A stretch of DNA of 64,000 bases, from the IMG/VR virus record IMGVR_UViG_3300045988_174698. One strand, given 5' to 3'. The translations under genes were made by a program, and so were the position numbers. Under the pieces are notes generated by a model. The model ran no database searches. It was not told the origin of the DNA and saw nothing but the letters and a program-made list of their open reading frames with translations. Numbering within the stretch: position 1 is the stretch's first letter; each line of letters starts with the position of its first letter. Origin of the DNA: a virus. Shown here one piece after another: positions 80-26,674 of the stretch.

Positions 80-1504
80 ATGAAAAATATTAAACCAGAT
101 ATTGATCTTCAAAATTCAATCGAACGTAGTAGGATTACTGAATCTAGAGAGTATTACAAAGGCAAGTCTTTTAATTTTGCTAAAGAATGGCACCCTGGAA
201 TAAATTATTTTAATGATAATTATATTACTGACTTTGTATCTTATAAAGGAACTTTATTAGTATGCCGTAGAACACATCTTTCTAGTAATAGTAACAGACC
301 TGAGCTACTATTTGAAGATCCAAAAGATTCAAATCAGCCAACTGGAGTAAAATCTGAATATTGAGATTTTATATTGGCTGGAACTCCAGGACCTGGAGGA
401 AAAGTATATATCCCTAACTATAATACATCTACTGGAGAACTTTCTTGAGTTATATCTGATAATATAGAAAGTATTGACCCTGTAAATATAAAAGGGGAGG
501 ACGGTAAAGATGGAAGAGATGGTAAAGATGGAAAGAATGGAACAAATGGAAAAGATGGTGATACTTATGTTCCACAATCAGAGCTTGATAATAACTACAT
601 AGTATTTAAATCTTTACAAGGAAAGGAAACTATTAAAGTAGATTGTAGTAACTTAAAGGGAGAACCTGGAGAGAGAGGTGAAAAGGGTAATGATTGAGTA
701 TTTAGTAAAGTTAATACTATAACATTATCCCCAAATGATAAGGGATATGCAGATATATCTGCAGATACTCCTGGAAGTGAATCAACAACTTATACTTTAA
801 CTTTAGGAATCCCTCAAGGAAAAACAGGTCTTAAGGGGAATAAGGGAGAAAAAGGAGAGAAAGGAGATCAAGGAGAAAAAGGAGAAGCGGGTCCTACCCC
901 TCTTTTTAAACTTATAAGGAATGAGAGTACAAGATCTATAGATTTATATTGATCTATTGATGAAGATTCAGACTGAGTGAATCTAGGAAGTGTTGGGGGA
1001 AAATCTCCAAAGCTATTAAGAGTTTTTGATGTTGCAGAACATCCCAATGTTCAAAATAGTACTAGACGAGATGATCGTATAGTATGGGGGTATGATGGAA
1101 TTTCTGTTAGTGAATGGACAACTCTATGTTATTTAGATGAACTTAGAGGAGATGAGAATATATGAATAAGTACTAAAGAAATTAAGCCAGGTGAAGGCAA
1201 TCCTCCAGTGATGGAAGTTAGAGACCCTAATAATCCTGAAGAGATAATACAAGTAGAAGATAAAGACAAAATATGATATGATCCATTTGATATTAGTTTA
1301 GATGAATTTAGTTCATTTGAATTTGTATTCAATGCTTATAAGGAGGCGGGGGGTCAATTAAGTGAGGATGCTTTTAGAAATACCTTTGCTAAAGTCGATT
1401 TATCTAGTTATTATACTAAAATTGAAGTAGATAAAATTAAACAAGATTTAGAAAAGTTAATCCAAGACACATCGTCTATGGTGTGAAACGATGTTATTAA
1501 TTAA
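80..1504 (+). CDS. tail fibre protein with collagen-like G-X-Y repeats (~474 aa; 7 in-frame TGA=Trp)
   Basis: ATG at 80 with TAA just upstream in frame. Track ORFs 80-364 and 977-1165 share a frame and the gap between them has no TAA/TAG. Gly-X-Y runs are present (GEDGKDGRDGKDGKNGTNGKDGD; GEPGERGEKG; GNKGEKGEKGDQGEKGEAGP). It ends at TAA 1502-1504. Confidence 0.7.
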
Positions 1505-5517: not shown

Positions 5518-8500
5518 ATGGCAATTAGAAATAAATTTATCCATTTTAAAACTAGGGCTGCATTTAATTCATATTTAGAAACACATGCGGACGATTTATA
5601 TAATTATACAACTTTTATAAAAGAAACAAAAGAAATTTATACTCATGGACAATTTTATAAGTCTAGTAATAAATGGGCTATTTCAAGCCTAACAGGCAAC
5701 TCTGACTATGCAACATTAGCTTATAATAATGGTAAGGTTGGGGATATATTTGACATGTCCTCTGGGACTACTGTTCATGGTATATTAGGTACAATTAATG
5801 ATAAGAAATGATATATATTCTATAAAGATTCTATTAGAGAATATATATATAATACAGATACAAAAAAATTTACAGCAGGAGCTACAATTAATCTTGCTAA
5901 TGACTCTGAAATTCCAGATCCTGCTACTGTGGCTCCTAAAATGGATGGTACAGCTGCTGTAGGATCATCTAATAAATATGCACGTGAAGACCATGTGCAT
6001 CCTTCAGATAATACCAAACAGGATACTCTTGTTAGTGGAGAATCAATTAGAACAATTAACAATCTTTCTTTATTAGGGGAAGGTAATATTAATGTAGGCG
6101 ATGTTCCTTCTATTACAGTAGAACATGAGCAAATACCAAATGAGACAGATTTTAATAGAGTTGCAGAAGCTGCGGCAAATAATAGAGCTGTTTTAATTAG
6201 AATTAAAACTACTGAAATGACGTTAACCTCTAATTATTGACAGTATACCTCTTCAGAATCTCAGAGAGGCTTTGTTGCTTATGCAACATATTTATCAGAA
6301 ACTAATAACATAACTCTGACGGCACATATTATAGAAAATCAACCAGTTATGGTAGAAACTTATGATAAAGAATTACAAGAAGAGTTAGTTTCTGGGACTA
6401 ATATTAAAACTATTAATGGTACTGCTATACTAGGATCAGGTAATATAGACACTCCAGATAGTAAGGTTACTAGTGCTGCTAATCACTATACTCCTGTTGG
6501 AGGAAGTGCTACATCTGGAACTATTATAAATTCTATTACTAAGGATGAGAAAGGACATATTATAGATATAGGGGTTGCTAATGGTATAGATGCTGGTAAA
6601 ATTACCTCGGGAGTTATTGATATTGAGAGATTGCCTAAGGGAGCACTGGAGCGTTTAGTAATAGTTGCAAATAAAGCAGCAAGACTAGCTTTAACCACTG
6701 AACAAGTACAAGAAGGCGATACTGTTAAAGAGAAAGATACAGGTCACATGTATTTTGTTATTGATTCTTCTAAATTAAATAGTGAAGATGGCTACTCTAT
6801 TTATACAGCAGGAGCAGCATCTAGTGTGCCGTGGTCGGGAGTGACAGGTAAACCTGATTTAGTTAACTCGGTTAAGTTAGTACTGCCAAGTTCCATATTC
6901 ATTAATTCTGAAAGTACACTTACAGGAAATGCAGAATTAGGATCATCTTTAAGTACACAAAACGCTAATACAGTATGAGCAGCTCCAAGTGGCACATCTG
7001 GGGTACCAACATTTAGGAAATTAACTTTCCTAGATATGAATACAGTAACGTCAGATGAATTTAACTATATACCACAGACATTTAAAGGAGGAAGGCTAGT
7101 AATTAATTATAAAAACTCTGCTGGGGGTCAAAATACTGACAACACTATAACAGAATACCAATTTGGAGATGGGGCCAGTAATCTTACATACATAACAGCA
7201 AAAGGTTTTAAAACTTCGGAAAATCATGGACACAGGGTACTATGTTCAAATGGGTCTTCCAAATTATTGTATGGACCATCAACTCCTGGAACAGCAGGAC
7301 AAGTATTAATTTCAAATGGGGGATCAGCTCCTGAATGGGGAAAAGTACCTATAACTAGTGTAGGAGGTCCTACTGTTGACACTGCAACTTCTAATACTGT
7401 ACCATATGGAATTACTTCATATATTGGGGAGTACCGTTCTGATAAATTAGCGTTTATAAAGAGCACTGATTTATATGGAGAAATGAGTAAAAACAACGGA
7501 GAATCATGAACTGAAGATCCTCAAGGAAGTAGTAGACTTATAAGTTTATTTACTTCACAAGATAATAAGTATGGTCTACAATTAATAGATACAGAAGATG
7601 TTAGCACAACCACTCAATATAGACTTACTATAAATAATAGTGACAGGTATTGTACTATTGATTGAATATATATATATGTGTCTACTAACGGCTCTGGTTA
7701 TAATTGCTTTATAGAAGCATATAATCCTAGTTCTGAATCTTGAGATATAATATCTCAGGATGCTGTTTTACAGGGGTGATCGGGACCTAATTTTAGAGCT
7801 TTGACATCTTCTATATATTATAACAATTCCCCAAGTACAGCTTCTCAATATTCGAAACTAAGGTTTACATTTTCAACTAAAAGTGTTAGTGAAAACCATG
7901 GCGGACAACTAACAGTCTATAGAATTTCTGGATATGGTACTTATGGCTGGAGAATGCCTAATAATACAGCTAAGGTGGGTCAAATATATTCTTGGGATAA
8001 TGCTCAAAATGTCTCTTTTCCAGGAAGTGTATCGGCTTGAAAATTTATCAGTAATGGGGGTACTAGTACTAATGTAACAATGGGAGATGGATCTCTAAAA
8101 GATCTTAAAACTAAACAACTAGTTGTAAACGGTACTATAAATAATTTTTATTCATCAGATAGTGTTGAGGTTAGACTTTACGCTCCTACTTCAGGTGGTA
8201 CTAGTGGGCAGATTCTTGTATCTAATGGTAATAATGCTCCTAACTGAGCATCCTTAGATAGTTTAGGATATCTACCATTAACAGGAGGTACAATTTCTGG
8301 AAGTTTAAGGGTTAGTGGTCACATTAATCCCGTAAACAATGGAGTTTCAAATATTGGAGAGAGTGGTAAGAAATTTAAGGACATATATGCTACTACTCTT
8401 CATGGAAATTTTAATGAATCTACAACATTTGCAGCACCCCATCCTAACCCAATATATATTGATAATACTAATAATAGTACTGATGGTGTTTATTTAGTAT

Positions 8501-10146
8501 TGAAGAATAAAGGAGTATATGTTTCTTCATTTGGAACTACTAATGAAACTACTAATTACATTGAGACCTTTATGTTACATAGAAAATCTGATCAATCTAA
8601 TAGCTATAAACTATCAATTAGAGATGACGGAAACGCTTATATACGAGGTAAAATAATAGCAACACAAGAATGGGTAACAAATAATATATCAGGATTAAGT
8701 ACTAATATTAGTAGTCAAGGTTCTGTAATTGCTTCACTTGGACAGTACTTAATTACAGGGGCAGATGCAAATGCAACTACTACTACAAGTACAGTAAAAA
8801 TTAAGTTAAAGCAAATAGGAAGATCCACAGCTACGAGTGCAAGTGCTTTTGGTTCTCCAAGTTTAGAATCATCTGGTGTAACTATTCCTGCTGCAACAAC
8901 AACTACAGCAGGAGTAATGACTGCTACTGATAAAAGTAATCTTAATACAGCTTATAGTTGAGGAAATCATGCTTCCGCAGGATATTTAAAGGGTATTCCA
9001 GAAGCAACCTCAGGCTCTTATGGAGGAATAAAAATAGGGTATCAAGCAGCTGATAAAAGTTATGCAGTACAATTAGATAGTAATGGTAAAGCTTATGTAA
9101 ATGTGCCTTGAGAAAAGGGAACTGGCACTATAACACAGATTAATGCAGGTCTTGGTATGAAACCAAAGCTAATAACTGGGAGGGGCACGTTAGATTTAAG
9201 TTTGAGATCTAGTACACAGATGTCACTAAGTTCTCAAAATGCTTCTACTGTATCTGGAAAAGTATATGCAGTTCAACTAGATAAAGATGGATATTTAGGT
9301 GTAAGTGTACCTTGAACAGATACAAATACAAACTATTATCCAACAACATTTACATGAACAAATGGAACCAGTAAAGGTCCAACAGGTTCACTAACTGGTA
9401 CTGGAATGAGTGCTGTTTCGTTTGGCTCTATACCTATAGCTAGTCTAAGTAATTCTGGTGTTATAACTACTGAAGCACAAGAAATAAGCGGCGAGAAATA
9501 CTTTAATAATGGAGTATTTGTTGGATTAAGCGGGAGTGTTAGTAGAGGTATTATAGACGGGAAGGCCTTTGGGTATGATGGACTAGCTATTGTTTCAGAT
9601 AGCAATGTGTATATAGCTCCAGATAACAATATTGTATATTTTGGATACGATGGGGATACATATATACAAGATGGAGTATTTAGTGGAACCGCTAGTAAGG
9701 CAAATATGGTTACAGGAGCATTAACTATACATAGTGGATCTACGAATATAACATATAATGGATCAAAGACAGAAGAGATTACAATTCCTAGAAATCGACA
9801 AACTAACCTAACTAGACAAGCATATGGGAGTGATTCGTCAATTTCTGTTAAAAAAGGTATATGTTATTATCATAACACAGGTTCACTATGGGCGACAAGT
9901 ATTAATCTATCTTTAAATACAGCTGACTGAAGTAGTATAGAAAGCACTAATGATACAGAGATAATTGAAACGTCTATGGTAGTAGTTGAAAGCGCATATC
10001 CTGTTACTTTTAGTTCAAACTCAATGTTAAAAGTGCAAAAAGATATTCCGTTAACTGGAGATGCAGGAACATATAGAGTTTATGTTTTTTCAAGAATAAC
10101 ACCAACTCTAGTTGCTGTAAACTGTGCTGTATATAAAGCTTCTTAA
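5518..10146 (+). CDS. giant tail fibre / receptor-binding protein (~1542 aa; ~16 in-frame TGA=Trp)
   Basis: Track ORFs 5518, 5929, 6349, 7036, 7801, 8500 and 9406 are all in frame 1. I read the gaps codon by codon (6241-6348, 7510-7800 and 9931-10146 with position checks) and found no TAA/TAG. It ends at TAA 10144-10146. Composition is fibre-like (S/T/G/N-rich) with repeated YxSTNGxT-type segments. Confidence 0.7.
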
Positions 10147-15850: not shown

Positions 15851-16177
15851 ATGAGTAAAGACACATGTAAATTTAATTTAAATGTAGCAACTAGATTAAT
15901 GCTACTTATGAATCTACCAGAACAAGGTTCTGTAATTGAGATGATTTCAAAAAGAAATATTCGTAAAAAAATTGACTTTTCTAGTGAAGAACTTGAAGAT
16001 CTTAATATCAAAAATGAAGATGGTAGGATTACATGATCTTCGGAAGCTCCTTCAATTGAAGTAGAATTTACAGACAGTGAGATTAACTTGTTAAAGTCAC
16101 TTATTGATAAACTAGATAAGTCTGGGTTAATTACAGATAATATCCTAGATTTTATTGAGAAAATATTAAAAGACTAA
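15851..16177 (+). CDS. hypothetical protein (~108 aa; 1 TGA=Trp)
   Basis: Track ORF 15851-16036 continues through TGA to TAA 16175-16177. Confidence 0.5.
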
Positions 16178-17364
16178 TGGGAACATTATCTAATAATTCT
16201 AAAGTTGGAGATAAAGGTAAAGACTTGATTCTACAGACATCTGGTAGAGTTTATGTTCAAGTAAAAGATAGATTTTATCCGATAAACTTTAGAGATACAG
16301 ACAATCCTAATTCTTCAGAAAATTCTAACACCTCTAATAATTCCAATATAAAGGGAGTATTAATAGTTGATAATCTTGAAACGTATAGTGGAGAATATCC
16401 TGGTGATGGAACTCTTGTTATAGACAGCTCTTCTGGTAGTTTTTATCAAGCTTCTAATAATTCTTATACTAAACTTCCATCTTCAGCTGTTAGTGATTTT
16501 AAATCTCCTATTAATATACAATTAGAAGATGCTTCTCAATCTCCCTTAGTTATTAACTCTAATGCTTTAGTAGAAAATCTAAATGCAGAATATTTATCTG
16601 GATATTCATCACGTGATTATACTAAAAAGGCTTCTAATGAGAGGATTGAAGGTAATTGGTCTTTTCCAACATTAGTTGTAGATAAAATAGTAAACAAATC
16701 TGGAACGACGTATTTTGATTTATCAAGAGGAGAGTTGATGACAAGTTCTTTAGTTACTAATACATTTAGTAGTAATAGTACTAGAACTTCTATTGTTAAA
16801 AAAACATCTAACGGAGATATTTACATTCAATTATCCAGTGAAATGTTTACTCCGTCAATATTAGGACTTTCAGGAGAGACGGTAACTACTACTGAAGAAG
16901 ATGGATCAGAAAAAGAGCAAGTTAATTACTCTCCATGGATATATATTACTGTTGGTAATGAGCATGATAAATATTCTACCAATGGAGTATTATCAAGTTC
17001 TACATATAAATTTACCACAGATGGTGAGGCTGCTATTGGAAAGGTTAAAAAAGAAGATGTGGACGGTAAGATAAGTTACTCTCCGTGGATAAATATTAAT
17101 TCCAATGAAGCTATTTTAAGTGCTGAAACTTATCAATTTAAATCAGATAAAACTGCTACTATCGGCCCAATTGTTTTAAATAATGATGGTACTATATCTA
17201 TAGGAAACTATACAATAGATACTAAGGGTAATCTAAACATTGGGCATATCAAAATTCATGCAGATGGAACAGCTACTATAGGAAGCGGAGAATATCAAGC
17301 TACAATTGATGCTGAAGGTAAATTTCAAATACCAGAAAAATGTATTATAAAAGAAAATATTTAA
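16177..17364 (+). CDS. tail fibre / tail spike-like protein with C-terminal repeats (395 aa)
   Basis: Intact ORF. It carries repeated SPWIxI...TYxF(K/T)...ATIG segments. Confidence 0.6.
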   Translation: MGTLSNNSKVGDKGKDLILQTSGRVYVQVKDRFYPINFRDTDNPNSSENSNTSNNSNIKGVLIVDNLETYSGEYPGDGTLVIDSSSGSFYQASNNSYTKLPSSAVSDFKSPINIQLEDASQSPLVINSNALVENLNAEYLSGYSSRDYTKKASNERIEGNWSFPTLVVDKIVNKSGTTYFDLSRGELMTSSLVTNTFSSNSTRTSIVKKTSNGDIYIQLSSEMFTPSILGLSGETVTTTEEDGSEKEQVNYSPWIYITVGNEHDKYSTNGVLSSSTYKFTTDGEAAIGKVKKEDVDGKISYSPWININSNEAILSAETYQFKSDKTATIGPIVLNNDGTISIGNYTIDTKGNLNIGHIKIHADGTATIGSGEYQATIDAEGKFQIPEKCIIKENI

Positions 17365-17371
17365 TAAAGTG

Positions 17372-17403
17372 TTTGGAAATTAAGAATTAATATATTATAT
17401 TTG
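17372..17403 (+). promoter_or_regulatory. Bacteroidota-type promoter candidate (TTTG 17372-17375; TAtaTTTG 17396-17403)
   Basis: Consensus spacing of 21 nt, 54 nt upstream of ATG 17457. Confidence 0.45.
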
Positions 17404-17456
17404 CCACAAATATCAAAACAGATTAATAATCAATTAATAAGAAAAAATAAGAAAAT

Positions 17457-18563
17457 ATGCCAAATCATTTTGAATTTAATGCGGATAGCTTTGACGAGCT
17501 ATTAACAGGAGAGGATAATTCAGTTTCAAGTCCTGAAAATGATAGTCCAGTTACCGCAGATACTATCGGAGGAGAAAATCTTCTTAGTCACTCAAGTAAT
17601 GATTCAGATCCAGTAGAGCCTAAAGAATCGGATCAAGATAAAAATATAGAAACTAGTAACAATAGCGACTTTTTGACATCCTTTTTAAGTGAGTATGGTC
17701 TTAAAGATGGTAAAGTAACTTATGAGAATGATGACGGTACTACGGAAGAAGTAGATTTTGATAGTTTAGACTCAGAGGAAAAAATAAATATTCTTAAAGA
17801 ACTTACTTCTCCAAATCTTAGCAAAGATGAAATAGAGGTAATTAATTATTTGCGTTCAAATAATGCAACAATACAGGATGTAATTACTTATTATTCTCAA
17901 AAAGCAGTAGAAGATTATATTAAAGAAAATGGTCCAATTGAAAAACAATACAGTGTAGATGAATATTCAGATGATGAACTATATATTGCTGATTTAAAAT
18001 CAAAATTCAGCGATATGAGTGAAGATGACATCAAAACTGATTTGGAGATTGCTAAAGAGAATGAGGAACTATTTAAGAAAAAGGTTGATATAATTCGTAA
18101 ACAATATAAAGCACAAGAAGAAGAAACAGCTAAAGAAAGAATAAAAGAACAAGAGGAACAATTTAATAATTTTAAAACTTCTCTTGAAAGTCAACTAAAT
18201 GACTTTAATTCTATTCCTATGGATTATAAAGATAACAAGTCAGATAGTCTGCAAATAGAAGAGTCTGAGAAGGAAGAGATTTATAAGTATATTTTAAATC
18301 AAGACGAGAACGGTGCAACACAATTCTTTAAAGATTTAAATGACCCAAAGACATTAGTAGAACTTGCATGGTTTGCACTTTATGGAAAGGAAGCTATTTC
18401 AGATATTACTAATTATTGGAAATCTCAGCTTAAAAATACAAGAAAATCTGTAGATAATAAGCCGCAGACTACTGTTGTCTCTTTAGATAAAAATAAGTCA
18501 AAAGATAATTTTACTAATCACCATAAATCTGCGGAGACAGAATATGGTGAAAATTTATTATAA
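17457..18563 (+). CDS. acidic coiled-coil protein, scaffold-like (368 aa)
   Basis: Intact ORF, very Asp/Glu/Lys-rich, immediately upstream of the capsid-candidate gene. Confidence 0.5.
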   Translation: MPNHFEFNADSFDELLTGEDNSVSSPENDSPVTADTIGGENLLSHSSNDSDPVEPKESDQDKNIETSNNSDFLTSFLSEYGLKDGKVTYENDDGTTEEVDFDSLDSEEKINILKELTSPNLSKDEIEVINYLRSNNATIQDVITYYSQKAVEDYIKENGPIEKQYSVDEYSDDELYIADLKSKFSDMSEDDIKTDLEIAKENEELFKKKVDIIRKQYKAQEEETAKERIKEQEEQFNNFKTSLESQLNDFNSIPMDYKDNKSDSLQIEESEKEEIYKYILNQDENGATQFFKDLNDPKTLVELAWFALYGKEAISDITNYWKSQLKNTRKSVDNKPQTTVVSLDKNKSKDNFTNHHKSAETEYGENLL

Positions 18564-18582
18564 ACTTAAAAATTAAATAAAT

Positions 18583-21500
18583 ATGAGAATTACAAGTTTT
18601 AGTTCTTCCCATGCTCAGATGGGTTCAACCAGAACTTATGAAGACTTTCATAAGTGGCTAGGTGATAAACCTGAGCGTTTAGGTATTGTATCTAATTTGT
18701 ATAAACAGTATACTGCAACAAGTCTTACTGAAGCACTGATGAATGTTTATACAATGGAAAAGGGCAAGCCTAGTAAATTTCAGTCTCTTAATTCATTCTT
18801 ACTTGAGTGGGAAATTGATGTTAATTTTGTTAAAAGAATTCCTATCCTTGCAGTTGAAGGAGATGGTTCGAATGGTTCTGAGGTTATTTTCCATTTCCCA
18901 GAGCGTTACTACGAGATGTATGACGTGTTTGTAATTGAAGAGACCCGCCAGCAATGTATGGTTATGCTGTCTCCAGTACGTCGTTCTGACGCGGTTGTAG
19001 AATATGTATGCCGTGTTATTGATAATGACTATAAGGAAGTACTTGATGTAGATAGTATTGTAGGTACTGACACTCGTTTTATTACGAATCATATGCCTGA
19101 ATTGCATGAAACAGGGTCGATATTAGTGGGCCCCACTATAATGCGAGTTATAGTTGAAAATTCTTTTAATTGCTGGAAACTCCTATAAAGTTGATACGTT
19201 TATAGGACAATCAGCAGCCAAGACTTAGATAAAGCAATCGCATAGCGAAGCTCTAAGTAAGGTTCAACGACTATCCCGAAAGGGAGTAGGGCAGAGATGT
19301 TCGAAATGGAGAAAATCTTATCAAAAAATGAAATATTTAGTATATTTAACTTACTGTATAACCAGTAAAAAATATTATATAGGTGTTCATATGACTAAAA
19401 ATCCAGAAGTTTGGGATTTTTATATTGGAAATGGAATATACACTAATAGGCCAGCTAGTTACAAAAAAGCTACAACTCCTCTAAAACGGGCTGTGTGTAA
19501 ATATGGAATAAATGCCTTTAGGAGAATAACATTAGCAGTTTTTGACACAAAAGAGGAAGCTTATAAATTAGAAGCGACTATTGTAAATGAATCTTTTGTA
19601 AGAGACCAAAACACCTATAATATAAAATTAGGAGGATCTGGTGGATGTCCAGAAATTCTAAAGAAGAAAGTGTATATGTACAATTCAAACGGAGATTTTG
19701 TTAAAGAGTTTAATACATTAAAAGAATGTATAGATGAAATAGCTCCGAATGCTCGTAATCAAAGTCATATATCTAGAGCAATTAAAAATGGATCTAGAGT
19801 TTATAATTATCAATTTTCTTATGAAAAAGTACCATTTATGAAGAAGTGAAAAACTGAAGTAAATAGTGCTAATTATTCAAATGCTCAGAGAAATAGAGAC
19901 ATGAGGAAAGTAGGAAAATATGATGATGACTGGAATTTAATAGAAGTATTTGAAAATACTGCAGAATTGCGGAAAGCTGGATATAGAAATGCTTATGCTG
20001 TATTAAAAGGAGTACGTGAACACTGTAATGGTTATAGATTTAAGTATATAGAATAAGATTAAGATATAGTCTACTCTTTATAGTAATATAAAGTATATAA
20101 GTCACTAAGTATCAATCAAACATCGAGAAGCATAGAACGATGATTGGGACAACTCGTTGTGATATTGATTATTCAGCTAAATATATGGCTTTGGAAGATC
20201 AGTTTATCAATATTGCAACAAAGGACAAAGATTTTACTTACAAGCTTTCTGGTGCAGAAAAAGTTTGTCTTGATAGCTATATGGCTGCTCGTAATAACAA
20301 GCTTTTATTCTCCAAAGGTAACTTTGATGTAAATGGTAAGACTACTATTTCTGATGAAATTGGTCGTCCTATTGTCACTACTGAGGGTAAGAGAATTTGC
20401 CCCTATGCTTAGTAATGAGCATGGAAATAAGCTCTTTAATTCAGGGAAAGCTGAGATGCCAATCCTGAGCGAAGCTAAATAGTAATATTTAGAACGTGCA
20501 ACGACTAGTTAAAGTAGTCCTATAAAGGATAAAATAACCACGAAAGGGAGCCATCCAGAAATGGATGAAGATATAGTCTGATCATATACGAAATCAAGTA
20601 TATGAAGTAGATGGTAAACTCATCTACGATAACAAAAATGATAATTCCTCAAATTGAACGCTTTGCAACGAAGTATGTATTTAATAAATTAACTACACGT
20701 ATCTTTGAAGGTGCTATGAATGAAATGGCTACTAAGTCAGATGAGCCCACAGGCAATTCTTGGGTATTTATTTGTAACACTAAAATGTGGCAATCTGTCC
20801 AGAGAACAATGGCTACATGGATTCGTGACTGGAAAACTACTGGTTGTTTCGTATGGTCACAAGGTGCTAAGGATTATGTTGACCTTGGTGCAACTTATCA
20901 GTCATATGAATTTGCGGGTAAATCTATCTTATTGCCCGCTGCAGCTTAGAGGCTGTATAAATAAAATTATTTAATTGCTGGAAACTCCTTATAGTTCTAT
21001 AAACTACAAAGTAATATGGAAATATAAACTTGAAAGTTTAAAAATTATAGAAATTGGACAATCAGCAGCGAAGCTCCTTAGTAAATATAATACATGGAGA
21101 ACGTTCAACGACTAGTAAGTCCTATTTAATAGGCATAGGTTAATATTAACCGAAATAATAATTATCTTATGGAATTAAAATATATTGTATATGTTACTGT
21201 TAACCTTTGTAATGGAAAATTATACTTTGGTGTACACAGAACAAATCCTGATATTTTTGATGGGTATATTGGTTGCGGTATTTATAGGCAGTCAAATGCT
21301 ATAAAAAAATATCCATTACACACAGCTGTTAAAAAATATGGGTATGATAACTTTAGAAGAACTATTATACAGATATTTCCAGACACAGATGAGGGTAAAA
21401 AACAAGCGTATGATTTAGAAGCTCAGCTTGTAAATACTACATTATTACGAAGTAAGAATGTATATAATTCAAAAGTTGGGGGAGAAGGTGGTTGTAATAT

Positions 21501-23720
21501 TGAACAAAAAAGAGTATATAAATATTCTTTAGATGGGGAGTTTTTACAATCGTATAAAAGTATAAATGAAGCGGCTTTAAGTTTAGTAACTAATTCTGAT
21601 CTTTATACTATTATAAAGAGTATTAGAAATAATTGTTTGGGATACTCATCTTCAGCATACAACTTCTTTTGAAGCTATAAAAAAGAATTTACTTATCATA
21701 GCAATAAAGTTCAAGTAGCTCAATACACTATTAGTGGTAAATTTATAAGACACTATAATAATATTACAGAAGCTGAACAAGAACTACAAATTAATACGAT
21801 CAAGCAGGCTATTAGTAAAAAGTGTTTAGCTGGTGGGTTTCAATGAAGAGTTTATAACAAAGATGATTCTGATATAAATAGCTATTATACAAATAGTATT
21901 AAAAACAATAGTACCCCAATAGTAATGATAAGTCTTGATGGTAAAATTACTAAGAATTATTCTTCAATAAATGAGTGCGCTATGGAAAATAATTTAAGTA
22001 GTTCTCAGATTAACAGAGTGTTAAAAAATATAATACGCAGTCATAAAGGATTTAAATTTAAATATATTTAACAAAGATAATGATATAGTCTGGTTTAATT
22101 AGAAATAATTAAAGTTAAGAATAAGATGATTTTCCGTCTTGATCGGTCATTAGACCTAGAGTTCCCTAAGAAGGCTTATGGTATATTCCTTGACCTGACT
22201 ACAGATTCAAATGGTACTCCTGGTATTATGATGTTTACTTTCCGTGGCGGAGATATTATCCACAATGTTATTAGAGGCGTAAAAAGAAATTATTCTGCCT
22301 GCGCCGCATAATAGTGATATTATGAAAAATAAAATTTCCTTAATTGCTGGAAACCTGTTAAATGGCAATCAGCAGCTAAGCGTTAGAATATGCAAGCGTA
22401 ATTACGAAGCTCTAACGAAAGTTCAACGACTAGTCTGGAAGACTTAGATTAAAAAATTAATCGAAATGGGAAATAACTTAAAAACAATAGTATATTTAAC
22501 AACTAATATAATTAATAAAAAGATATATGTTGGAGTTCATGATACTGAAACTCCAGAGATCTTTGATGGATACATTGGTAATGGAATTAATATTAATTAT
22601 CCATCTTCTAATAGACATCCCTCATGTCCGTTTCACTATGCTGTGAAAAAATATGGATTTGATAATTTTATAAGATCTACTATAAAGGTATTTGATAATA
22701 GAGAGGATGCTCTCAAATTAGAGAAATTAATAGTAGATGATAAATTTATAGCGAGAAAAGATACTTATAATATAGTAATTGGTGGGGGAGATCCTCCAAA
22801 AAATGCAATACCTGTATATCAATATGATTTAAATGGCACTTTTATAAGAAAATATAATTCTATTTTTGAGGCGAGCAAATTGGTTAATGGTGCTGCAGGT
22901 ATAAGATCTGCCATAAATTATAAAACTACTAGTGGAGGGTATTTATGGAGTGATATATATATAGAATCTTTAGATCCAAATATGTATTACATAGTAGATC
23001 AAAAAAAGGAAATATATTTATATCACACAAATGGAATTTTGTACAAGAAATTTAATTCAATATCTGAGACTTTAAAGGAATTAAAAGTTAGTCTCGGTCC
23101 AGTACAAAGAGCCATTATAACGAAAACAAAGATCAAAGGATATTATATTAGTGATACATTATTAGAAAAATTTATACCAATCAGATACAAAAAACATAAT
23201 ACTGGTGTATATCAGTATAGTTTGGATGGAGAGTATTTAAATTACTATAAGAGCTGTTTAGAAGTAGCAAGATTACTTGGAAAACAGTATAATAGTATAT
23301 CTCATTGTATACGACTTGGTAAACCGTGTGGTGGTTACCAGTGGTCTTGAGAAAAAGTAGAAAAAATGGCTCCTTACAAAGTTACAATAAAAACTAGAAA
23401 AGTTGGTCAGTTTACTTTAGATGGTAAATTGGTAAAAACATATAATACTGTTAGAGAGTGTAGAAAGGAATTTGGAAATGTAAGTAGAGTTTTAAAAGGA
23501 TTGGTTAATAAATGTAAAGGATATACTTTTAAATATATAGATTAAGTTAGTGATATAGTCTAATCTTATACGAAAGTGTAAGTCCACATGGGGTGGAAAA
23601 AGCGGACTTGAGTCTGGTGAAGTTTCGAGTCCAGTTGCTGGAGCCAAGATTGTTAACTGGGGCTATCATGGAGTAGGTGTGATGAATCCCTATCGTTCTG
23701 CAATCCTTGAAGAAGTTTAA
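18583..23720 (+). CDS. conserved virion gene (candidate major capsid protein, ~493 aa mature) interrupted by four group I introns
   Basis: Proposed exons are 18583-19142, 20136-20410, 20615-20946, ~22120-22309 and ~23593-23720. They sum to 1482 nt (494 codons). I chose the junctions from P1 U-G pairing, codon phase and a terminal G. Exon 5 reads ...GKSGLESGEVSSPVAGAKIVNWGYHGVGVMNPYRSAILEEV and ends at TAA 23718-23720. The capsid identity rests on position and size only. Confidence 0.5.
19143..20135 (+). mobile_element. group I self-splicing intron 1 with GIY-YIG homing endonuclease gene
   Basis: Core elements are P (TTAATTGCTGGAAAC, 19166), Q (CAATCAGCAGCC), R (GTTCAACGACTAT), and S (AAGATATAGTCT) near 20065. 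The P1 hairpin ACTATAAT-GCGA-GTTATAGT puts a U-G pair at the 5' splice site. The 3' end is set by phase and a terminal G (...GCATAG). Confidence 0.65.
19328..20056 (+). CDS. GIY-YIG homing endonuclease (intron-encoded, ~242 aa; 1 TGA=Trp)
   Basis: KYLVYLTYCITSKKYYIGVH...YIGNG...NIKLGG are GIY-YIG motifs. The C-terminal NUMOD-like modules end ...NGYRFKYIE. The track ORF 19328-19849 continues 69 codons through TGA. Confidence 0.8.
20411..20614 (+). mobile_element. ORF-less minimal group I intron 2 (~204 nt)
   Basis: Core elements are P-like AATTCAGGGAAAGC, Q-like CAATCCTGAGCG, R GTGCAACGACTAG and S GAAGATATAGTCTGA. P1 pairs exon ATGCTT with GAGCAT, giving a U-G pair at 20410. In-frame TAG/TAA/TGA sit at the intron start and an in-frame TAG at 20608-20610. 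Confidence 0.55.
20947..22119 (+). mobile_element. group I intron 3 with GIY-YIG homing endonuclease gene
   Basis: P1 is CAGCT-TAGA-GGCTG with a U-G pair at 20946. P is at 20975 (TTAATTGCTGGAAACTCC), followed by Q CAATCAGCAGCG, R GTTCAACGACTAG and S TGATATAGTCTGG near 22080. An in-frame TAA lies at 22096-22098. The 3' end is approximate (22119 or 22125). Confidence 0.65.
21169..22071 (+). CDS. GIY-YIG homing endonuclease (intron-encoded, ~300 aa; 2 TGA=Trp)
   Basis: KYIVYVTVNLCNGKLYFGVH...YIGCG carries the GIY-YIG motifs. Repeated NUMOD-like modules include AGGFQ-W-RVY with TGA at the Trp position. It ends ...KGFKFKYI at TAA 22069-22071. Confidence 0.8.
22310..23592 (+). mobile_element. group I intron 4 with GIY-YIG homing endonuclease gene
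   Basis: In-frame TAA-TAG-TGA lie at the 5' end. P is at 22340 (TTAATTGCTGGAAACC), followed by Q CAATCAGCAGCT, R GTTCAACGACTAG and S GTGATATAGTCTAATC near 23549. The 3' end is placed by phase and a terminal G (23592 or 23595). Boundaries are +/-10 nt. Confidence 0.55.
22466..23545 (+). CDS. GIY-YIG homing endonuclease (intron-encoded, ~359 aa; 1 TGA=Trp)
   Basis: TIVYLTTNIINKKIYVGVH...YIGNG carries the GIY-YIG motifs. Four tandem NUMOD-like modules include GGYLWSD (TGG) and GGYQWS-W-EK (TGA). It ends ...KGYTFKYID at TAA 23543-23545. Confidence 0.8.
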
Positions 23721-23762
23721 TATTTGATATTACAAGTAATATAAAAGATATATTAATTTTAG

Positions 23763-23800
23763 AGTACTCCCTAATTTAGGGAGTACTTCTAAAACTTTTT
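23763..23800 (+). terminator. rho-independent terminator after the spliced gene
   Basis: The hairpin GAGTACTCCCTAATTTAGGGAGTACT is followed by TCTAAAACTTTTT. Confidence 0.5.
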
Positions 23801-23835
23801 AGATAAAAAATTTATTTCAAAGACAAAAAAAAATA

Positions 23836-24648
23836 ATGAATAAAATAACTCTTAAGAATGTATATGGGAGGGAGAAGAAGTATTATCTTCAACCTATGAA
23901 ACAAAAGAACGGAACGAACTTTCCTTTTGTAAAGAAAGTTAGATATAATGAACATGGAGATAGCGAAATGATTTTAAGTCCTGATGAACTTAATGATCCT
24001 GAAAGAGATTATTTCATTCCAGAGGATGAACTTATTGAGATATATAGTGGGCGTACTTTTAACCTAGATGACCCATATGAACGTAACCTTTGGAAATGTA
24101 TTGAAACAAATCCTGTAATTGCACCAGAAAGAACAGCTAAAGATAAGTATGGCAATTATCTTATTGATGGTACACAGGAAAGATACGGTCGAGCAGATTT
24201 TTATGTTGAACGAGAGGGAGAAGTTTCAAAGAGAAGAGTCTCACGTATTCAGCTTGTTACAAAAGCATTTGTATTCATTGAGAATGATTCTCCTGCGGGG
24301 CGCATTACTAAGTGTAAACTTTTAGGTAAAGCTATGAGAAATGCACCTGATACTGATGTACAAGATTATTTATATAGCCGTGCACAAAAGAATCCTCAAG
24401 AAATCATTGACCTATATACTGGGTCGGATCAAGCACTGAAACTTCTAATCATTGATGCAAAAGATAAAAATATTATTACCAATCAGAGTGGAATTTGGAT
24501 GTTTAGTGAAACTATGTTAGGAGCAACAGATGAAGCTATTATCATGTACTTAAAAAATCCAGAGAATCAGAATATTTATGATTCAATTAAGAATCTTACT
24601 TTCCCTGATATGGTAGTAAAAAGGACCGCAAAAGAAAAAACAAAATAG
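23836..24648 (+). CDS. hypothetical virion-module protein (270 aa)
   Basis: Intact ORF in the track. Confidence 0.55.
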   Translation: MNKITLKNVYGREKKYYLQPMKQKNGTNFPFVKKVRYNEHGDSEMILSPDELNDPERDYFIPEDELIEIYSGRTFNLDDPYERNLWKCIETNPVIAPERTAKDKYGNYLIDGTQERYGRADFYVEREGEVSKRRVSRIQLVTKAFVFIENDSPAGRITKCKLLGKAMRNAPDTDVQDYLYSRAQKNPQEIIDLYTGSDQALKLLIIDAKDKNIITNQSGIWMFSETMLGATDEAIIMYLKNPENQNIYDSIKNLTFPDMVVKRTAKEKTK

Positions 24649-24678
24649 AATATTATATAATTTTATTAAACAAGTAGA

Positions 24679-25533
24679 ATGACACTTAGGAACGTTTACG
24701 AATTCGCTTTAGTAGAATGCAACAAGTTAAAAGCTCCTTCTATTTTATTAGAAGATTTTATATACTTGTTTAATAAAGCTATTCAACAATATGTAAATAG
24801 TGTATACAATAGAGCTGAATATAATCAACAAAGTTCAGATGATATTGGGTTTTTACAAACTACTGCTACTATAACAGTTGGAGAAGTTACTCCAAAGCAA
24901 GAATTTAATGATACAATTTGAGAGTTAGAATTACCAAAAGATTACGTACACTTACTTAATTGTATGGCAGAGTTTGTTGGTAGTGATTCAAAATCTAGAT
25001 GTGGGAATGGTATTTTAAAAACTATTACCTCCCCATGTCAAAGATTAACAGCAGATATGTACCCTGGTATTATTAATAATTATTATATGAGACCTTCTCA
25101 TAAAAAACCTTATTATTATATTATTAATCATAATACTGAGAGTCAAACTCCAACAAATCCAAACATGGATGCAGAATTTGGATACAATCCAGAATTTATT
25201 GGAGAAAATGAATATCGTTTCTATGCATTAAAGCCTAATGAAAGTAGAGTTGTAAACCAGTCTATTGTAAAAATTGAGATACATAGTGGAGATTCTCAAT
25301 GAACATTAAATAAGTTATATGTTACTTATTTAAAATCTCCAAAGTATTACTCAATGACACAAGACCAGATATTAGCTATAATCGATGATACACCAATTTT
25401 GGAATTTCCTGATTATGTGTGTTACGAAATAATCAACATTTATGTTAGGTTATTTTTAGAAAATGCAAGTGATCCAAGATTACAAACAAATATTCCTATT
25501 AATCAGACTATAGCTGTACCTGGAAGTAAATAA
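24679..25533 (+). CDS. hypothetical virion-module protein (~284 aa; 2 TGA=Trp)
   Basis: Track ORFs 24679 and 24964 share a frame. I counted codons through the two TGAs to TAA at about 25531-25533. Confidence 0.55.
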
Positions 25534-25558
25534 TTATTAATTTAAAATTTAGAAAAAT

Positions 25559-26674
25559 ATGTGGAATTTTCAAAAAGAAGTAGTACTTAACAGTCTTGAT
25601 AATGTTGAGGTTGTAGAAGGTACAGATAAAGGTCTTGGTAAACCTGCAATTGATAAAAAAGTACGCTTCCATGATGGAGGTGAGTATTTTGCTAAGTATA
25701 TTGTAGATCACAAGATTTATGAAACTGATCCTATTACAGGAACTAACTTTAAGTTAGTTTTACATGCTCCCTCTGCTATTCTAGGACAACATGTACAGAT
25801 TTTAATTGAGCTTGGGCTTGATAATGACTACCGTGGAGATTATGGCTCAGCTCTTTGGTATTTTCGTAAGCCGATTTTAGTAGATGTTGTTCTTCCAGAA
25901 CATAATGAAGCAGCTGCTAAAGTTATTTACGATGCTATTACAGCTGCTATTCCTGAAGAATATAAATTTGTTAATACATCTTATTCAGGTGGTAATGTAA
26001 CTATTGATGGATCTGATTCTTATCAAAAAGTACGGAAGGTTGTTATTAGTCGTTATGATTGTGATGAACGTTGTGCTGGAAGTTCAGAAGAGCCTGTAGA
26101 AATTGTTAATGTGTCCGCAGGTGCTCTTAAGAAAGGTAATGATTATGTTACATATACTCCAAACAATGTTGAATTTGGTACCTATGAATACCTTCTTCAT
26201 AATCTACGCCTTCCAACTTATGCAAATCTTCGTTTTACTTCACCTTCTGCTCCAGAAATGCCTGTTCCAGGTGTTAAGTATACTCAGTTTAGCTTTGCCT
26301 ATTGTGTTCCTCGTGGAATTCATTTTGGAGGTTTATCAGTTGCTGGTCAGACAAATCATTCGACAACATTACATACTTTCTTTGTAGCTTCTTCCTTAGT
26401 AACAGAATTTAAGAAAAAGTTCAAAGAGATTGGTTTTGTAGATGATGACTTTGAAACTATTGGTAGAAATGACGGTCAGCACGAAATTACTATTCTTCCT
26501 GATGCTTATGCTTCATCACAAGATTTAGCAAATGCAGCTGCAATTAAGGCAAATAGTGATGCTGATGCAGATCTCAAATCTAAGGTTAAGGAAAACCGAT
26601 CTGCAATTAAGAAAGCCCACGCCGCCGAAGGAGCTGATCCAAGTGAGGCTCAAGGACTTGAAGATATAGAATAA
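25559..26674 (+). CDS. hypothetical structural protein (371 aa; alternative capsid/head-decoration candidate)
   Basis: Intact ORF with no TGA, of a size compatible with a capsid-associated protein. Confidence 0.55.
   Translation: MWNFQKEVVLNSLDNVEVVEGTDKGLGKPAIDKKVRFHDGGEYFAKYIVDHKIYETDPITGTNFKLVLHAPSAILGQHVQILIELGLDNDYRGDYGSALWYFRKPILVDVVLPEHNEAAAKVIYDAITAAIPEEYKFVNTSYSGGNVTIDGSDSYQKVRKVVISRYDCDERCAGSSEEPVEIVNVSAGALKKGNDYVTYTPNNVEFGTYEYLLHNLRLPTYANLRFTSPSAPEMPVPGVKYTQFSFAYCVPRGIHFGGLSVAGQTNHSTTLHTFFVASSLVTEFKKKFKEIGFVDDDFETIGRNDGQHEITILPDAYASSQDLANAAAIKANSDADADLKSKVKENRSAIKKAHAAEGADPSEAQGLEDIE

What the first reader, a model, noticed from the sequence alone, without database searches (positions are those of the whole stretch)
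18583..23720. A single roughly 493-codon virion gene (capsid candidate) split into five exons by four group I introns
Four copies of the group I catalytic core occur within 5 kb. The P/Q/R/S consensus is recognisable in each: TTAATTGCTGGAAAC, CAATCAGCAGC, GTTCAACGACTA and AAGATATAGTCY. Introns 1, 3 and 4 each carry a GIY-YIG homing endonuclease gene. Intron 2 is a bare ribozyme of about 204 nt. The exons are short open segments in defined phases. P1 hairpins place a U-G pair at the 5' splice sites (ACTATAAT-GCGA-GTTATAGT; CAGCT-TAGA-GGCTG; ATGCTT...GAGCAT). The exons sum to exactly 1482 nt (494 codons) when the only phase-compatible 3' sites with a terminal G are chosen. An acidic scaffold-like gene lies upstream and a terminator downstream. 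Four introns in one structural gene is an unusual load and implies the pre-mRNA must complete four ribozyme reactions to make capsid.
Basis: partly seen in the sequence, partly recalled or inferred. Interest (0 to 1): 0.85.

Follow-up and report, generated by a model that had tools for sequence, protein, structure and literature searches.

The report
Four self-splicing introns in crAss-like capsid gene

Summary
The core observation holds. Window 18583-23720 (+) carries one gene split by four group I introns. Three carry GIY-YIG-type homing endonuclease genes and one is ORF-less.

The details are wrong. The true P1 helices (GGGU/GCCC type, with a U·G wobble) lie about 25 nt upstream. Corrected exons are 18583-19117, 20102-20388, 20641-20919, 22120-22280 and 23591-23720. 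They total 1392 nt (463 aa), not 1482 nt.

These junctions are confirmed by gapless alignment to uninterrupted homologs and by BLAST breakpoints against natural intron-free alleles. The corrected product matches Pfam Crass_capsid.

The whole window reads TGA as a sense codon, probably Trp. The endonuclease genes are intact only under that code (242, 300 and 359 aa). The capsid exons avoid TGA.

Near-identical phages carry different intron subsets, including a fifth site.

This is not new. Yutin et al. 2021 (Nat Commun, Fig. [quoted passage not shown] Splicing itself remains inferred.

The parts
18583..19117 (+). MCP exon 1 (535 nt, ends in phase 1, ...HETG + T)
   Evidence: ATG at 18583. The 5' splice site follows U19117, which pairs with G in P1. 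The alignment to intron-free homologs is gapless.
19118..20101 (+). Group I intron 1 (984 nt). P1 19114-19118/19129-19133, P2 19135-19154, P7 19269-19273/20067-20071, HEG in the P8 loop, terminal G at 20101.
   Evidence: RF00028 5' half 44.5 bits and 3' piece 25.1 bits. Helices verified by script. Absent from L003 and L005 at exactly this position.
19328..20056 (+). Intron-1 homing endonuclease, GIY-YIG type, 242 aa, with one in-frame TGA (19847) read as sense
   Evidence: PHROG 314 E 6.6e-25. Pfam GIY-YIG 18.4 bits, below its cutoff. The C-terminus aligns with the other two HEGs beyond the TGA.
20102..20388 (+). MCP exon 2 (287 nt)
   Evidence: Reads FTKYQSNIEKHRTMIGTTRCD, matching the homologs' YVKYQSNIERHRGYITTHRCD.
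20389..20640 (+). Group I intron 2, ORF-less (252 nt). P1 20385-20391/20396-20402, P2 20405-20422, P9 and P9.1 present, terminal G at 20640.
   Evidence: RF00028 73.4 bits, above the gathering score. Helices verified. Absent from L003 and L005 with breakpoint 20389/20641.
20641..20919 (+). MCP exon 3 (279 nt, phase 0 to phase 0)
20920..22119 (+). Group I intron 3 (1200 nt). P1 20914-20921/20932-20939, P2 20941-20956, extended P5, HEG in the P8 loop, terminal G at 22119.
   Evidence: RF00028 5' half 41.5 bits and 3' piece 20.7 bits. Helices verified. Present in L003 and L042, absent from L005.
21169..22071 (+). Intron-3 homing endonuclease, 300 aa, with two in-frame TGA codons (21670, 21844) at Trp-like positions (NFFWSY, GGFQWRVY)
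   Evidence: PHROG 314 E 7e-22. NUMOD1 at 30.9 bits and I-HmuI_NUMOD-like at 45.2 bits lie downstream of the TGAs and pass their cutoffs.
22120..22280 (+). MCP exon 4 (161 nt, ends in phase 2, ...RG + GT)
22281..23590 (+). Group I intron 4 (1310 nt). P1 22276-22281/22300-22305, P2 22307-22324, P7 22428-22432/23556-23560. The HEG start overlaps P3' and the ORF body lies in the P8 loop. Terminal G at 23590.
   Evidence: RF00028 37.7 bits (5' half) and 26.9 bits (3' piece). Helices verified. Absent from L003 and L005 with breakpoint 22280/23591.
22466..23545 (+). Intron-4 homing endonuclease, 359 aa, with one in-frame TGA (23348; GGYQWSW)
   Evidence: PHROG 314 E 2.9e-22. NUMOD1 86.7 bits, I-HmuI_NUMOD-like 37.6 bits after the TGA, GIY-YIG 20.5 bits below cutoff.
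23591..23720 (+). MCP exon 5 (130 nt including the TAA stop). It uses a different genomic frame from exons 1-4.
17457..18563 (+). Upstream acidic 368-aa ORF (possible scaffold; function not shown)
   Evidence: pI 4.32, 23% D+E. No Pfam or PHROG hit. The exact protein is recorded in 591 blocks of the public collection.
23757..23800 (+). Terminator-like hairpin (17-bp stem) followed by C-UUUUU
   Evidence: RNAfold -21.2 kcal/mol. The inverted repeat is conserved in L003 and L005. The simple terminator scan did not call it.

Best explanation
WHAT IT IS
This is the major capsid protein gene of a Zeta-group crAss-like phage (order Crassvirales) that reads TGA as a sense codon. Four IA-type group I introns of one ribozyme lineage interrupt it.

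INTRON ARCHITECTURE
- Each intron follows a U that forms a U·G wobble in a short G-rich P1: exon GGGU or GGCGU pairs with guide sequence GCCC or GCGCC.
- P1 is followed by a P2 hairpin, the conserved P3-P8 core with P7.1 (and in introns 3-4 a P7.2) insertions, and P9.
- Each intron ends in G.

SPLICING (inferred)
- After transcription, each ribozyme should excise itself by the standard two-step guanosine-initiated transesterification.
- This would join 18583-19117, 20102-20388, 20641-20919, 22120-22280 and 23591-23720 into a 1392-nt mRNA.
- That mRNA encodes a 463-aa capsid protein.

ENDONUCLEASES AND MOBILITY
- Introns 1, 3 and 4 carry GIY-YIG/NUMOD-type homing endonuclease genes in the P8 loop. 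These genes need TGA read-through, so the phage's recoding machinery must translate them. The capsid exons contain no TGA.
- The endonucleases most likely keep the introns mobile between co-infecting relatives. That would explain the mosaic occupancy and the clusters of synonymous substitutions around polymorphic sites.

SHOWN VERSUS INFERRED
- Shown: ribozyme cores, helices, junctions, homology of the product, and the population polymorphism.
- Inferred: catalytic self-splicing, endonuclease activity and homing.
For: RIBOZYMES
- RF00028 hits support all four introns.
- Complete P1-P9 helix sets were verified by script. P2, P6a, P8 and P9 differ in sequence between introns while staying paired.

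JUNCTIONS
- The spliced CDS is 1392 nt, in frame, with every intron following U and ending in G.
- The alignment is gapless across all four junctions with the intron-free homologs MT835470 and MT835492.
- Homologs at 92% identity are uninterrupted genes of exactly 463 aa.
- BLAST breakpoints against L003 and L005 fall at 20389/20641, 20921/22120 and 22280/23591. Nucleotide-level junction alignments agree.

CAPSID IDENTITY
- Pfam Crass_capsid 33.4 bits, above the cutoff of 27.
- Profile hit to 7qof gp32, E 9e-4.
- Top seven Foldseek hits are phicrAss001 capsid chains, E about 1e-14.
- CrAss_Ring_1 is encoded downstream.
- A cluster member is named major capsid protein in NCBI nr.

RECODING
- ORF coverage on the + strand rises from 37 kb to 59 kb when TGA is read as sense.
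- NUMOD domains score above their cutoffs downstream of the in-frame TGAs.

MOBILITY
- Occupancy patterns among capsid genes about 97% or more identical are 1+2+3+4, 0+3, 2 and 2+3. Genes about 92% identical (L005, L012, L013) carry none.
- There are 13 and 10 substitutions within 30 nt of sites 1 and 0, against 2.7 expected. Only 3 of 62 differences are non-synonymous.

VIABILITY
- The four-intron layout recurs on long contigs from independent samples.

PRIOR DESCRIPTION
- PMC7886860.
Against: - There is no transcript or protein evidence of splicing. The exact spliced product is absent from a collection of about 15 billion proteins.
- Introns 1, 3 and 4 score below Rfam's gathering threshold as split hits.
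- The GIY-YIG catalytic domain is below Pfam's cutoff in all three endonucleases.
- The structure model is of low confidence (pLDDT 54.8). Foldseek TM-scores are only about 0.26.
- P1 helices are short, with 4-6 exon base pairs, and P5 of intron 4 is minimal.
- The amino acid inserted at TGA is inferred from conserved Trp-like positions. No suppressor tRNA lies in the window.
Confidence: 0.9

Rival explanations
1. The 5' splice sites lie at the U·G pairs of the hairpins ACTATAAT-GCGA-GTTATAGT, ATGCTT...GAGCAT and CAGCT-TAGA-GGCTG, giving exons that total 1482 nt and a 493/494-aa product.
Against: - The Rfam alignments place these hairpins at P2.
- The 494-aa product has 16, 9 and 9 residues with no counterpart in any homolog, and it misses a conserved 14-residue segment at junction 1.
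- It gives no Pfam hit, whereas the corrected product does.
- Natural intron-free alleles break at the corrected coordinates.
- Homologs at 92% identity are 463 aa.
Confidence: 0.02
2. The gene is a decaying pseudogene, or the introns are splicing-dead insertions, and a functional capsid protein comes from elsewhere.
For: There is no direct splicing evidence. Yutin et al. raise the possibility of mobile elements 'out of control' in Zeta phages.
Against: - The exons carry no frameshift or stop and stay under purifying selection: 3 non-synonymous out of 62 differences against L003.
- All ribozyme helices, the U·G pairs and the terminal G residues are intact.
- The same four-intron layout recurs on long contigs from independent samples, and the flanking scaffold-like protein is recorded in 591 blocks of the collection. 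The phage appears abundant and viable.
- tblastn with the capsid protein found no second copy in the 13-17 kb loci fetched from relatives. The window itself was not searched that way.
Confidence: 0.03
3. The intervening segments are not introns. They are free-standing homing endonuclease genes or inteins that split the gene into separately translated fragments, which then assemble or are joined at the protein level.
For: Endonuclease ORFs sit between the fragments. Inteins and split genes are common in this phage group.
Against: - Every gap has a group I core with covariance-model support, including the ORF-less gap.
- The fragments lack their own start codons at the true boundaries, and two junctions fall inside codons (phases 1 and 2).
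- No Hint or intein domain was found.
- The endonuclease ORFs are separated from the exon frames by stop codons.
Confidence: 0.02

Closest known systems
MCP gene of Zeta-group crAss-like cMAG OLRF01000054 (Yutin et al. 2021, Nat Commun 12:1044, Fig. 7a; PMC7886860)
   Same: [quoted passage not shown] Here exons 1-4 share one frame and exon 5 uses another.
- Three of the four gaps encode intron-type endonuclease domains.
- The MCP coding parts contain no recoded stop codon.
- The genome context matches: 145-192 kb, TGA or TAG reassignment, and many introns.
   Different: - I could not check whether the window is that same genome.
- The paper found the introns through protein domains and did not map ribozymes or splice sites.
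- This analysis adds exact junctions and shows that the fourth gap is a genuine ORF-less ribozyme.
- It also adds the shared GGGU/GCCC P1, TGA codons inside the endonuclease genes, and site-by-site polymorphism that includes a fifth site.
Staphylococcus phage Twort orf142, with three IA2 group I introns (Landthaler & Shub 1999, PNAS 96:7005, as cited in PMC11878797)
   Same: - A late structural gene carries several closely related group I introns.
- Similar guide sequences make exon skipping conceivable. Here the ends of exons 1-3 pair equally well with the guide sequences of introns 1-3.
   Different: - Twort has three introns and this gene has four.
- The Twort gene encodes a tail tube protein (PMC11878797), not the capsid protein.
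- From memory, the Twort orf142 introns lack endonuclease ORFs, whereas three of four carry them here.
- Splicing and exon skipping were shown experimentally in Twort and have not been shown here.
T4 td, nrdB and nrdD(sunY) introns, with I-TevI/I-TevII GIY-YIG homing (textbook knowledge, not tested here)
   Same: - IA-type phage introns that carry GIY-YIG endonucleases in a peripheral loop.
- Homing with co-conversion of flanking exon sequence.
- Optional distribution among close relatives.
   Different: - The T4 introns sit one per gene in nucleotide-metabolism genes.
- Here there are four in one structural gene.
- The endonuclease genes are written in a recoded genetic code.
Bastillevirinae DNA polymerase and terminase introns (PMC11878797) and Jug phage introns (PMC12880540)
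   Same: - Essential phage genes are split by up to three group I introns.
- Intron density per genome is high, at 18.5 per Jug phage genome on average.
- Metatranscriptome reads confirmed splicing in Jug phages.
   Different: - The phage lineages and target genes differ.
- These phages show no alternative genetic code.
- The capsid gene is not the reported target.

Membership tests
Group I intron (Rfam RF00028) | The catalytic core matches the covariance model at the curated gathering score | tested here: met
   Intron 2 scores 73.4 bits against 50, full length.
Group I intron (Rfam RF00028) | The same criterion applied to the ORF-bearing introns 1, 3 and 4 | tested here: inconclusive
   The large P8 insertions split the match. 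5' halves score 44.5, 41.5 and 37.7 bits (E 4e-9 to 2e-8). 3' pieces score 25.1, 20.7 and 26.9 bits. Each piece is below the 50-bit gathering score, but E-values are significant and the helix sets are complete.
Group I intron | The 5' splice site follows a U that forms a U·G wobble in P1 with the internal guide sequence | tested here: met
   GGGU/GCCC in introns 1-3 and GGCGU/GCGCC in intron 4, with 5-8 bp P1 helices.
Group I intron | The intron ends in G (omega-G) | tested here: met
   G at 20101, 20640, 22119 and 23590.
Group I intron | Excision restores an ORF colinear with uninterrupted homologs | tested here: met
   Gapless alignment, a 463-aa product equal in length to intron-free homologs at 92% identity, and breakpoints against natural intron-free alleles.
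Group I intron | Guanosine-dependent self-splicing | not testable with these tools
   This needs in vitro transcription and splicing, or RNA-seq.
Subgroup IA (IA2-like) | Extra P7.1/P7.2 helices between P7 and P3' | tested here: inconclusive
   P7.1 hairpins were found in all four introns and P7.2 in introns 3 and 4 by manual assignment checked by script. No subgroup-specific model was available.
GIY-YIG homing endonuclease | GIY-YIG catalytic domain (Pfam PF01541) above its cutoff | tested here: inconclusive
   Scores are 18.4-20.9 bits against a cutoff of 22.6. PHROG 314 'homing endonuclease' gives E 1e-22 to 1e-25. The VY...YIG, R, E and N motifs are visible in the alignment.
GIY-YIG homing endonuclease | C-terminal NUMOD-type DNA-binding modules | tested here: met
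   NUMOD1 and I-HmuI_NUMOD-like pass their cutoffs in the HEGs of introns 3 and 4. In intron 1 the match is sub-threshold.
Crassvirales major capsid protein (Pfam PF23898 Crass_capsid) | Profile match above the curated cutoff | tested here: met
   33.4 bits against 27, E 2e-8, for the corrected product. Homologs are precomputed as PF23898.
Crassvirales major capsid protein | Fold similarity to phicrAss001 gp32 (HK97-type) | tested here: inconclusive
   The top seven Foldseek hits are phicrAss001 capsid chains (E 2e-14 to 1e-12) over about 450-520 alignment columns. TM is about 0.26 because the model is of low confidence (pLDDT 54.8). The model was built from P0001, a 92%-identical homolog, not from the window's own product.
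Zeta-group crAss-like phages (Yutin 2021) | Genome of 145-192 kb, stop-codon reassignment, and high intron density | tested here: met
   Relatives' contigs are 156-179 kb. TGA is read as sense across the window. At least six group I introns lie in 64 kb.
Zeta-group crAss-like phages (Yutin 2021) | Phylogenetic placement by TerL, portal and MCP trees | not tested
   No reference Zeta sequences were available for comparison.

The most novel reading that the evidence does not exclude
One ribozyme lineage with a fixed guide sequence (GCCC) has colonised at least five positions in a single capsid gene. Each position follows GGGU or GGCGU. The spread would have been guide-sequence-directed (reverse-splicing-type) intragenic transposition. 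Endonuclease genes of two unrelated families (GIY-YIG and LAGLIDADG) would have been acquired or swapped afterwards. The ORF-less intron 2 shows no co-conversion footprint and would be the clearest trace of such endonuclease-independent movement.
Probability: 0.15. Interest if true: 0.55.

Novelty: already known. Interest (0 to 1): 0.3.

Why it matters
Correct annotation of abundant gut phages depends on recognising introns and recoding together. Standard gene callers break this capsid gene into 201-, 90-, 103- and 61-aa stubs plus truncated endonucleases.

The base-exact exon map and the P1 rule given here could help annotate the capsid gene of this very common phage lineage. They also give precise junctions for metatranscriptomic or proteomic validation.

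The biology is not new. Heavy intron load in Zeta-group crAss-like phages, including this five-fragment capsid gene, was published in 2021. Why these phages tolerate such a load remains open, but this window does not by itself make that question more testable.

Tried and rejected
- Megablast of the region against deposited phages found only 34-90-nt intron-core matches and no close relative.
- PHROGs and single-sequence phmmer against PDB gave nothing for the capsid protein.
I modelled the 92%-identical homolog P0001 instead. Confidence was low, so the fold match counts only as support.
- I planned a custom covariance model from introns 1-3 to test intron 4. MAFFT could not align the variable peripheral helices. 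Narrow-range Rfam scans did the job instead.
- The simple terminator scan found nothing. The hairpin was confirmed by folding.
- An exact look-up of the spliced product, which might have revealed an assembled spliced transcript, found nothing.
- I considered reverse splicing into pre-existing GGGU sites as the main route of spread. It is weakened because intron-free relatives almost never carry GGGT at sites 1-4: 0, 0, 1 and 1 of 81. Endonuclease-bearing polymorphic sites also show co-conversion-like substitution clusters.
- Pairwise 'identities' of the ribozyme parts (76-86% of aligned columns) come from gap-tolerant alignments and are inflated. I do not rely on them.
Full report
1. OBSERVATION

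An Rfam scan of the whole window gave one group I hit above the gathering score, the ORF-less intron at 20378-20598 (73.4 bits). A permissive scan of 18400-24000 added the 5' halves of two more introns (44.5 and 41.5 bits) and two 3' S/P9 pieces. Intron 4 was reported only when its two ribozyme segments were scanned alone (37.7 and 26.9 bits). Four group I cores within 5 kb on one strand is therefore real and far beyond chance.

2. SPLICE SITES

They put P1 about 25 nt upstream.

Two intron-free homologs from human faecal phage contigs (MT835470 and MT835492) settled the matter. It also misses a conserved segment at junction 1.

I moved the 5' splice sites to the U·G pairs of the GGGU/GCCC-type P1 helices. 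I then chose the in-phase acceptors that follow a G. This gives:
- Exon 1: 18583-19117
- Exon 2: 20102-20388
- Exon 3: 20641-20919
- Exon 4: 22120-22280
- Exon 5: 23591-23720

Together they make 1392 nt (463 aa). The product aligns without gaps across all four junctions.

Independent confirmation:
- Homologs at 92% identity are uninterrupted genes of exactly 463 aa.
- BLAST against a 97-98% identical relative (L003) that lacks introns 1, 2 and 4, and against an intron-free relative (L005), breaks at 20389/20641, 20921/22120 and 22280/23591.
- Nucleotide alignments across each junction agree.

3. RIBOZYME ANATOMY

A script confirmed P1, P2, P3, P4, P6a, P7, P7.1, P8 and P9 in all four introns, P5 in introns 1, 3 and 4, P7.2 in introns 3 and 4, and P9.1 in intron 2. 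P2, P6a, P8 and P9 differ in sequence between introns but stay paired. The endonuclease ORF sits in the P8 loop in introns 1, 3 and 4. The P7.1/P7.2 insertions point to subgroup IA, but no subgroup model was available to test this.

4. THE PROTEIN

- The corrected product hits Pfam Crass_capsid (33.4 bits against a cutoff of 27).
- A profile of 30 homologs finds phicrAss001 MCP gp32 as its top PDB sequence hit (E 9e-4).
- A low-confidence AlphaFold model of the 92%-identical homolog P0001 (pLDDT 54.8) finds phicrAss001 capsid chains as its top seven Foldseek hits (E about 1e-14, TM about 0.26). Other HK97-type capsids follow.
- A member of the same 90% cluster is named 'major capsid protein' in NCBI nr.
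- A CrAss_Ring_1 protein is encoded downstream.

The capsid interpretation is supported.

5. GENETIC CODE

Reading TGA as sense raises + strand ORF coverage from 37 to 59 kb of 64 kb. The three endonuclease genes each contain one or two in-frame TGAs at Trp-like positions (NFFWSY, GGFQWRVY, GGYQWSW). They become 242-, 300- and 359-aa proteins. NUMOD domains score above their cutoffs downstream of the TGAs.

The capsid exons contain 0 TGA and 8 TGG. Elsewhere in the window the counts are 129 TGA and 68 TGG (P about 2e-4). No tRNA gene lies in the window.

6. POPULATION VIEW

The exact upstream protein is recorded in 591 blocks of the public collection. The four-intron layout recurs on long contigs from independent samples.

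Capsid genes about 97% or more identical show different occupancy:
- Sites 1+2+3+4: the window and L006-L011.
- Sites 0+3: L003 and L004. Site 0 is a 906-nt LAGLIDADG intron after ATGGGT at codon 14.
- Site 2 only: L040. Here the intron is 868 nt and carries a LAGLIDADG ORF, yet it has the same P1/P2 and P9/P9.1 ends as the window's ORF-less intron 2.
- Sites 2+3: L042.

Genes about 92% identical (L005, L012, L013) carry none. In all, 81 of 91 surveyed loci are uninterrupted, although that survey favours uninterrupted genes.

Window-versus-L003 differences number 62 of 1392 nt, and only 3 are non-synonymous. They cluster around sites 0 and 1 (10 and 13 within 30 nt against 2.7 expected) and upstream of site 4. 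They do not cluster at the ORF-less site 2. This pattern fits endonuclease-driven homing with co-conversion.

All five sites follow GGGT or GGCGT, and four of the six GGGT tetramers in the CDS are intron sites. Intron-free relatives almost never have that sequence at sites 1-4. The P1-compatible exon sequence therefore travels with, or is selected after, the intron.

7. MECHANISM

The most likely mechanism is standard group I self-splicing of four introns from one late transcript. Intron mobility is maintained by the encoded endonucleases.

Because the ends of exons 1-3 pair equally well with the guide sequences of introns 1-3, exon skipping is conceivable, as in Twort. Only exon-3 skipping stays in frame.

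Splicing, endonuclease activity and homing are all inferred. None has been shown here.

8. COMPARISON WITH THE LITERATURE

Yutin et al. 2021 (PMC7886860) describe Zeta-group crAss-like phages with 145-192 kb genomes. [quoted passage not shown] The window matches this description point for point.

Earlier precedents for multi-intron phage genes:
- Bastillevirinae polymerase and terminase genes, with up to three introns (PMC11878797).
- Jug phages average 18.5 introns per genome, with metatranscriptomic confirmation of splicing (PMC12880540).

9. VERDICT

The coordinates and the P1 assignment are wrong, and the phenomenon is already published. This analysis adds a base-exact exon map and proof that the fourth gap is a true ORF-less ribozyme. 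It also adds the shared P1 design, the recoded endonuclease genes, and the site-by-site polymorphism. Interest is modest.

Noticed in passing
window 1-64000, + strand: The whole window reads TGA as a sense codon (code-4-like, probably Trp). ORF coverage on the + strand rises from 37 kb to 59 kb, and many apparent gene fragments fuse: for example 24679-25533 becomes one 284-aa ORF and 5518-10146 becomes 1542 aa. No tRNA gene lies in the window, so any suppressor tRNA is encoded elsewhere or comes from the host.
   Followed up: partly
window 16177-26674: The capsid gene and four neighbouring ORFs (16177-17364, 17457-18563, 23836-24648, 25559-26674) contain no in-frame TGA, whereas other ORFs in the window use TGA for about 65% of TGA+TGG positions. 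For the MCP alone the counts are 0 TGA and 8 TGG, P about 2e-4. The intron-encoded endonucleases inside the MCP gene do use TGA.
   Followed up: partly
window ~60635-61589: A fifth group I intron (RF00028 5' half 44.5 bits, E 1.7e-10) has the same P/Q/R/S motifs and a LAGLIDADG_2 ORF at 60804-61553 (249 aa, four in-frame TGA). It interrupts the large ORF that starts at 55132 and resumes near 61587-61590. Exact splice sites were not mapped.
   Followed up: partly
window ~62230-63497: A sixth group I core lies at 63242-63460 (RF00028 36.8 bits, E 4e-8). An HTH + LAGLIDADG_2 ORF at 62291-63238 (315 aa, three TGA) sits immediately upstream. It is not resolved whether this ORF is inside the intron's 5' part or is free-standing.
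   Followed up: partly
L003 7098-8003 (ERZ28658533 scaffold_19) = window position 18624|18625: A 97-98% identical relative carries a 906-nt LAGLIDADG-bearing intron after codon 14 of the capsid gene (ATGGGT|), a site that is empty in the window. It uses the same GGGU/GCCC P1 design.
   Followed up: yes
L040 6823-7690 and L042 (IMG/VR UViGs 3300045988_173136 and _180998): At capsid site 2 these relatives carry an 868-nt intron with a 208-aa LAGLIDADG ORF. Its first ~42 nt and last ~75 nt are identical to the window's ORF-less 252-nt intron 2, but the central core differs.
   Followed up: partly
proteins P0016 and P0013: P0016 (91% identical) ends ...FICNTR|INCHMCA, which suggests yet another intron site near residue 322. 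P0013 (73% identical) ends ...GV|NEYQFTCAA, which means it reads into an intron at site 4 in a more distant relative.
   Followed up: no
L002 6001-7425 (MT835492.1): This 41%-identical intron-free capsid homolog has four in-frame TAG codons, one of them aligned to Gln in MT835470. A related phage therefore uses TAG rather than TGA reassignment, and does so inside its capsid gene.
   Followed up: no
window 80-1504: This 474-aa ORF (eight in-frame TGA) contains collagen-like G-x-y repeats (GKDGRDGKDGKNGTNGKDG, GEPGERGEKG...). It precedes several Ala/Thr/Ser-rich fibre-like ORFs. Relatives' neighbouring genes carry Phage_fiber_rpt.
   Followed up: no
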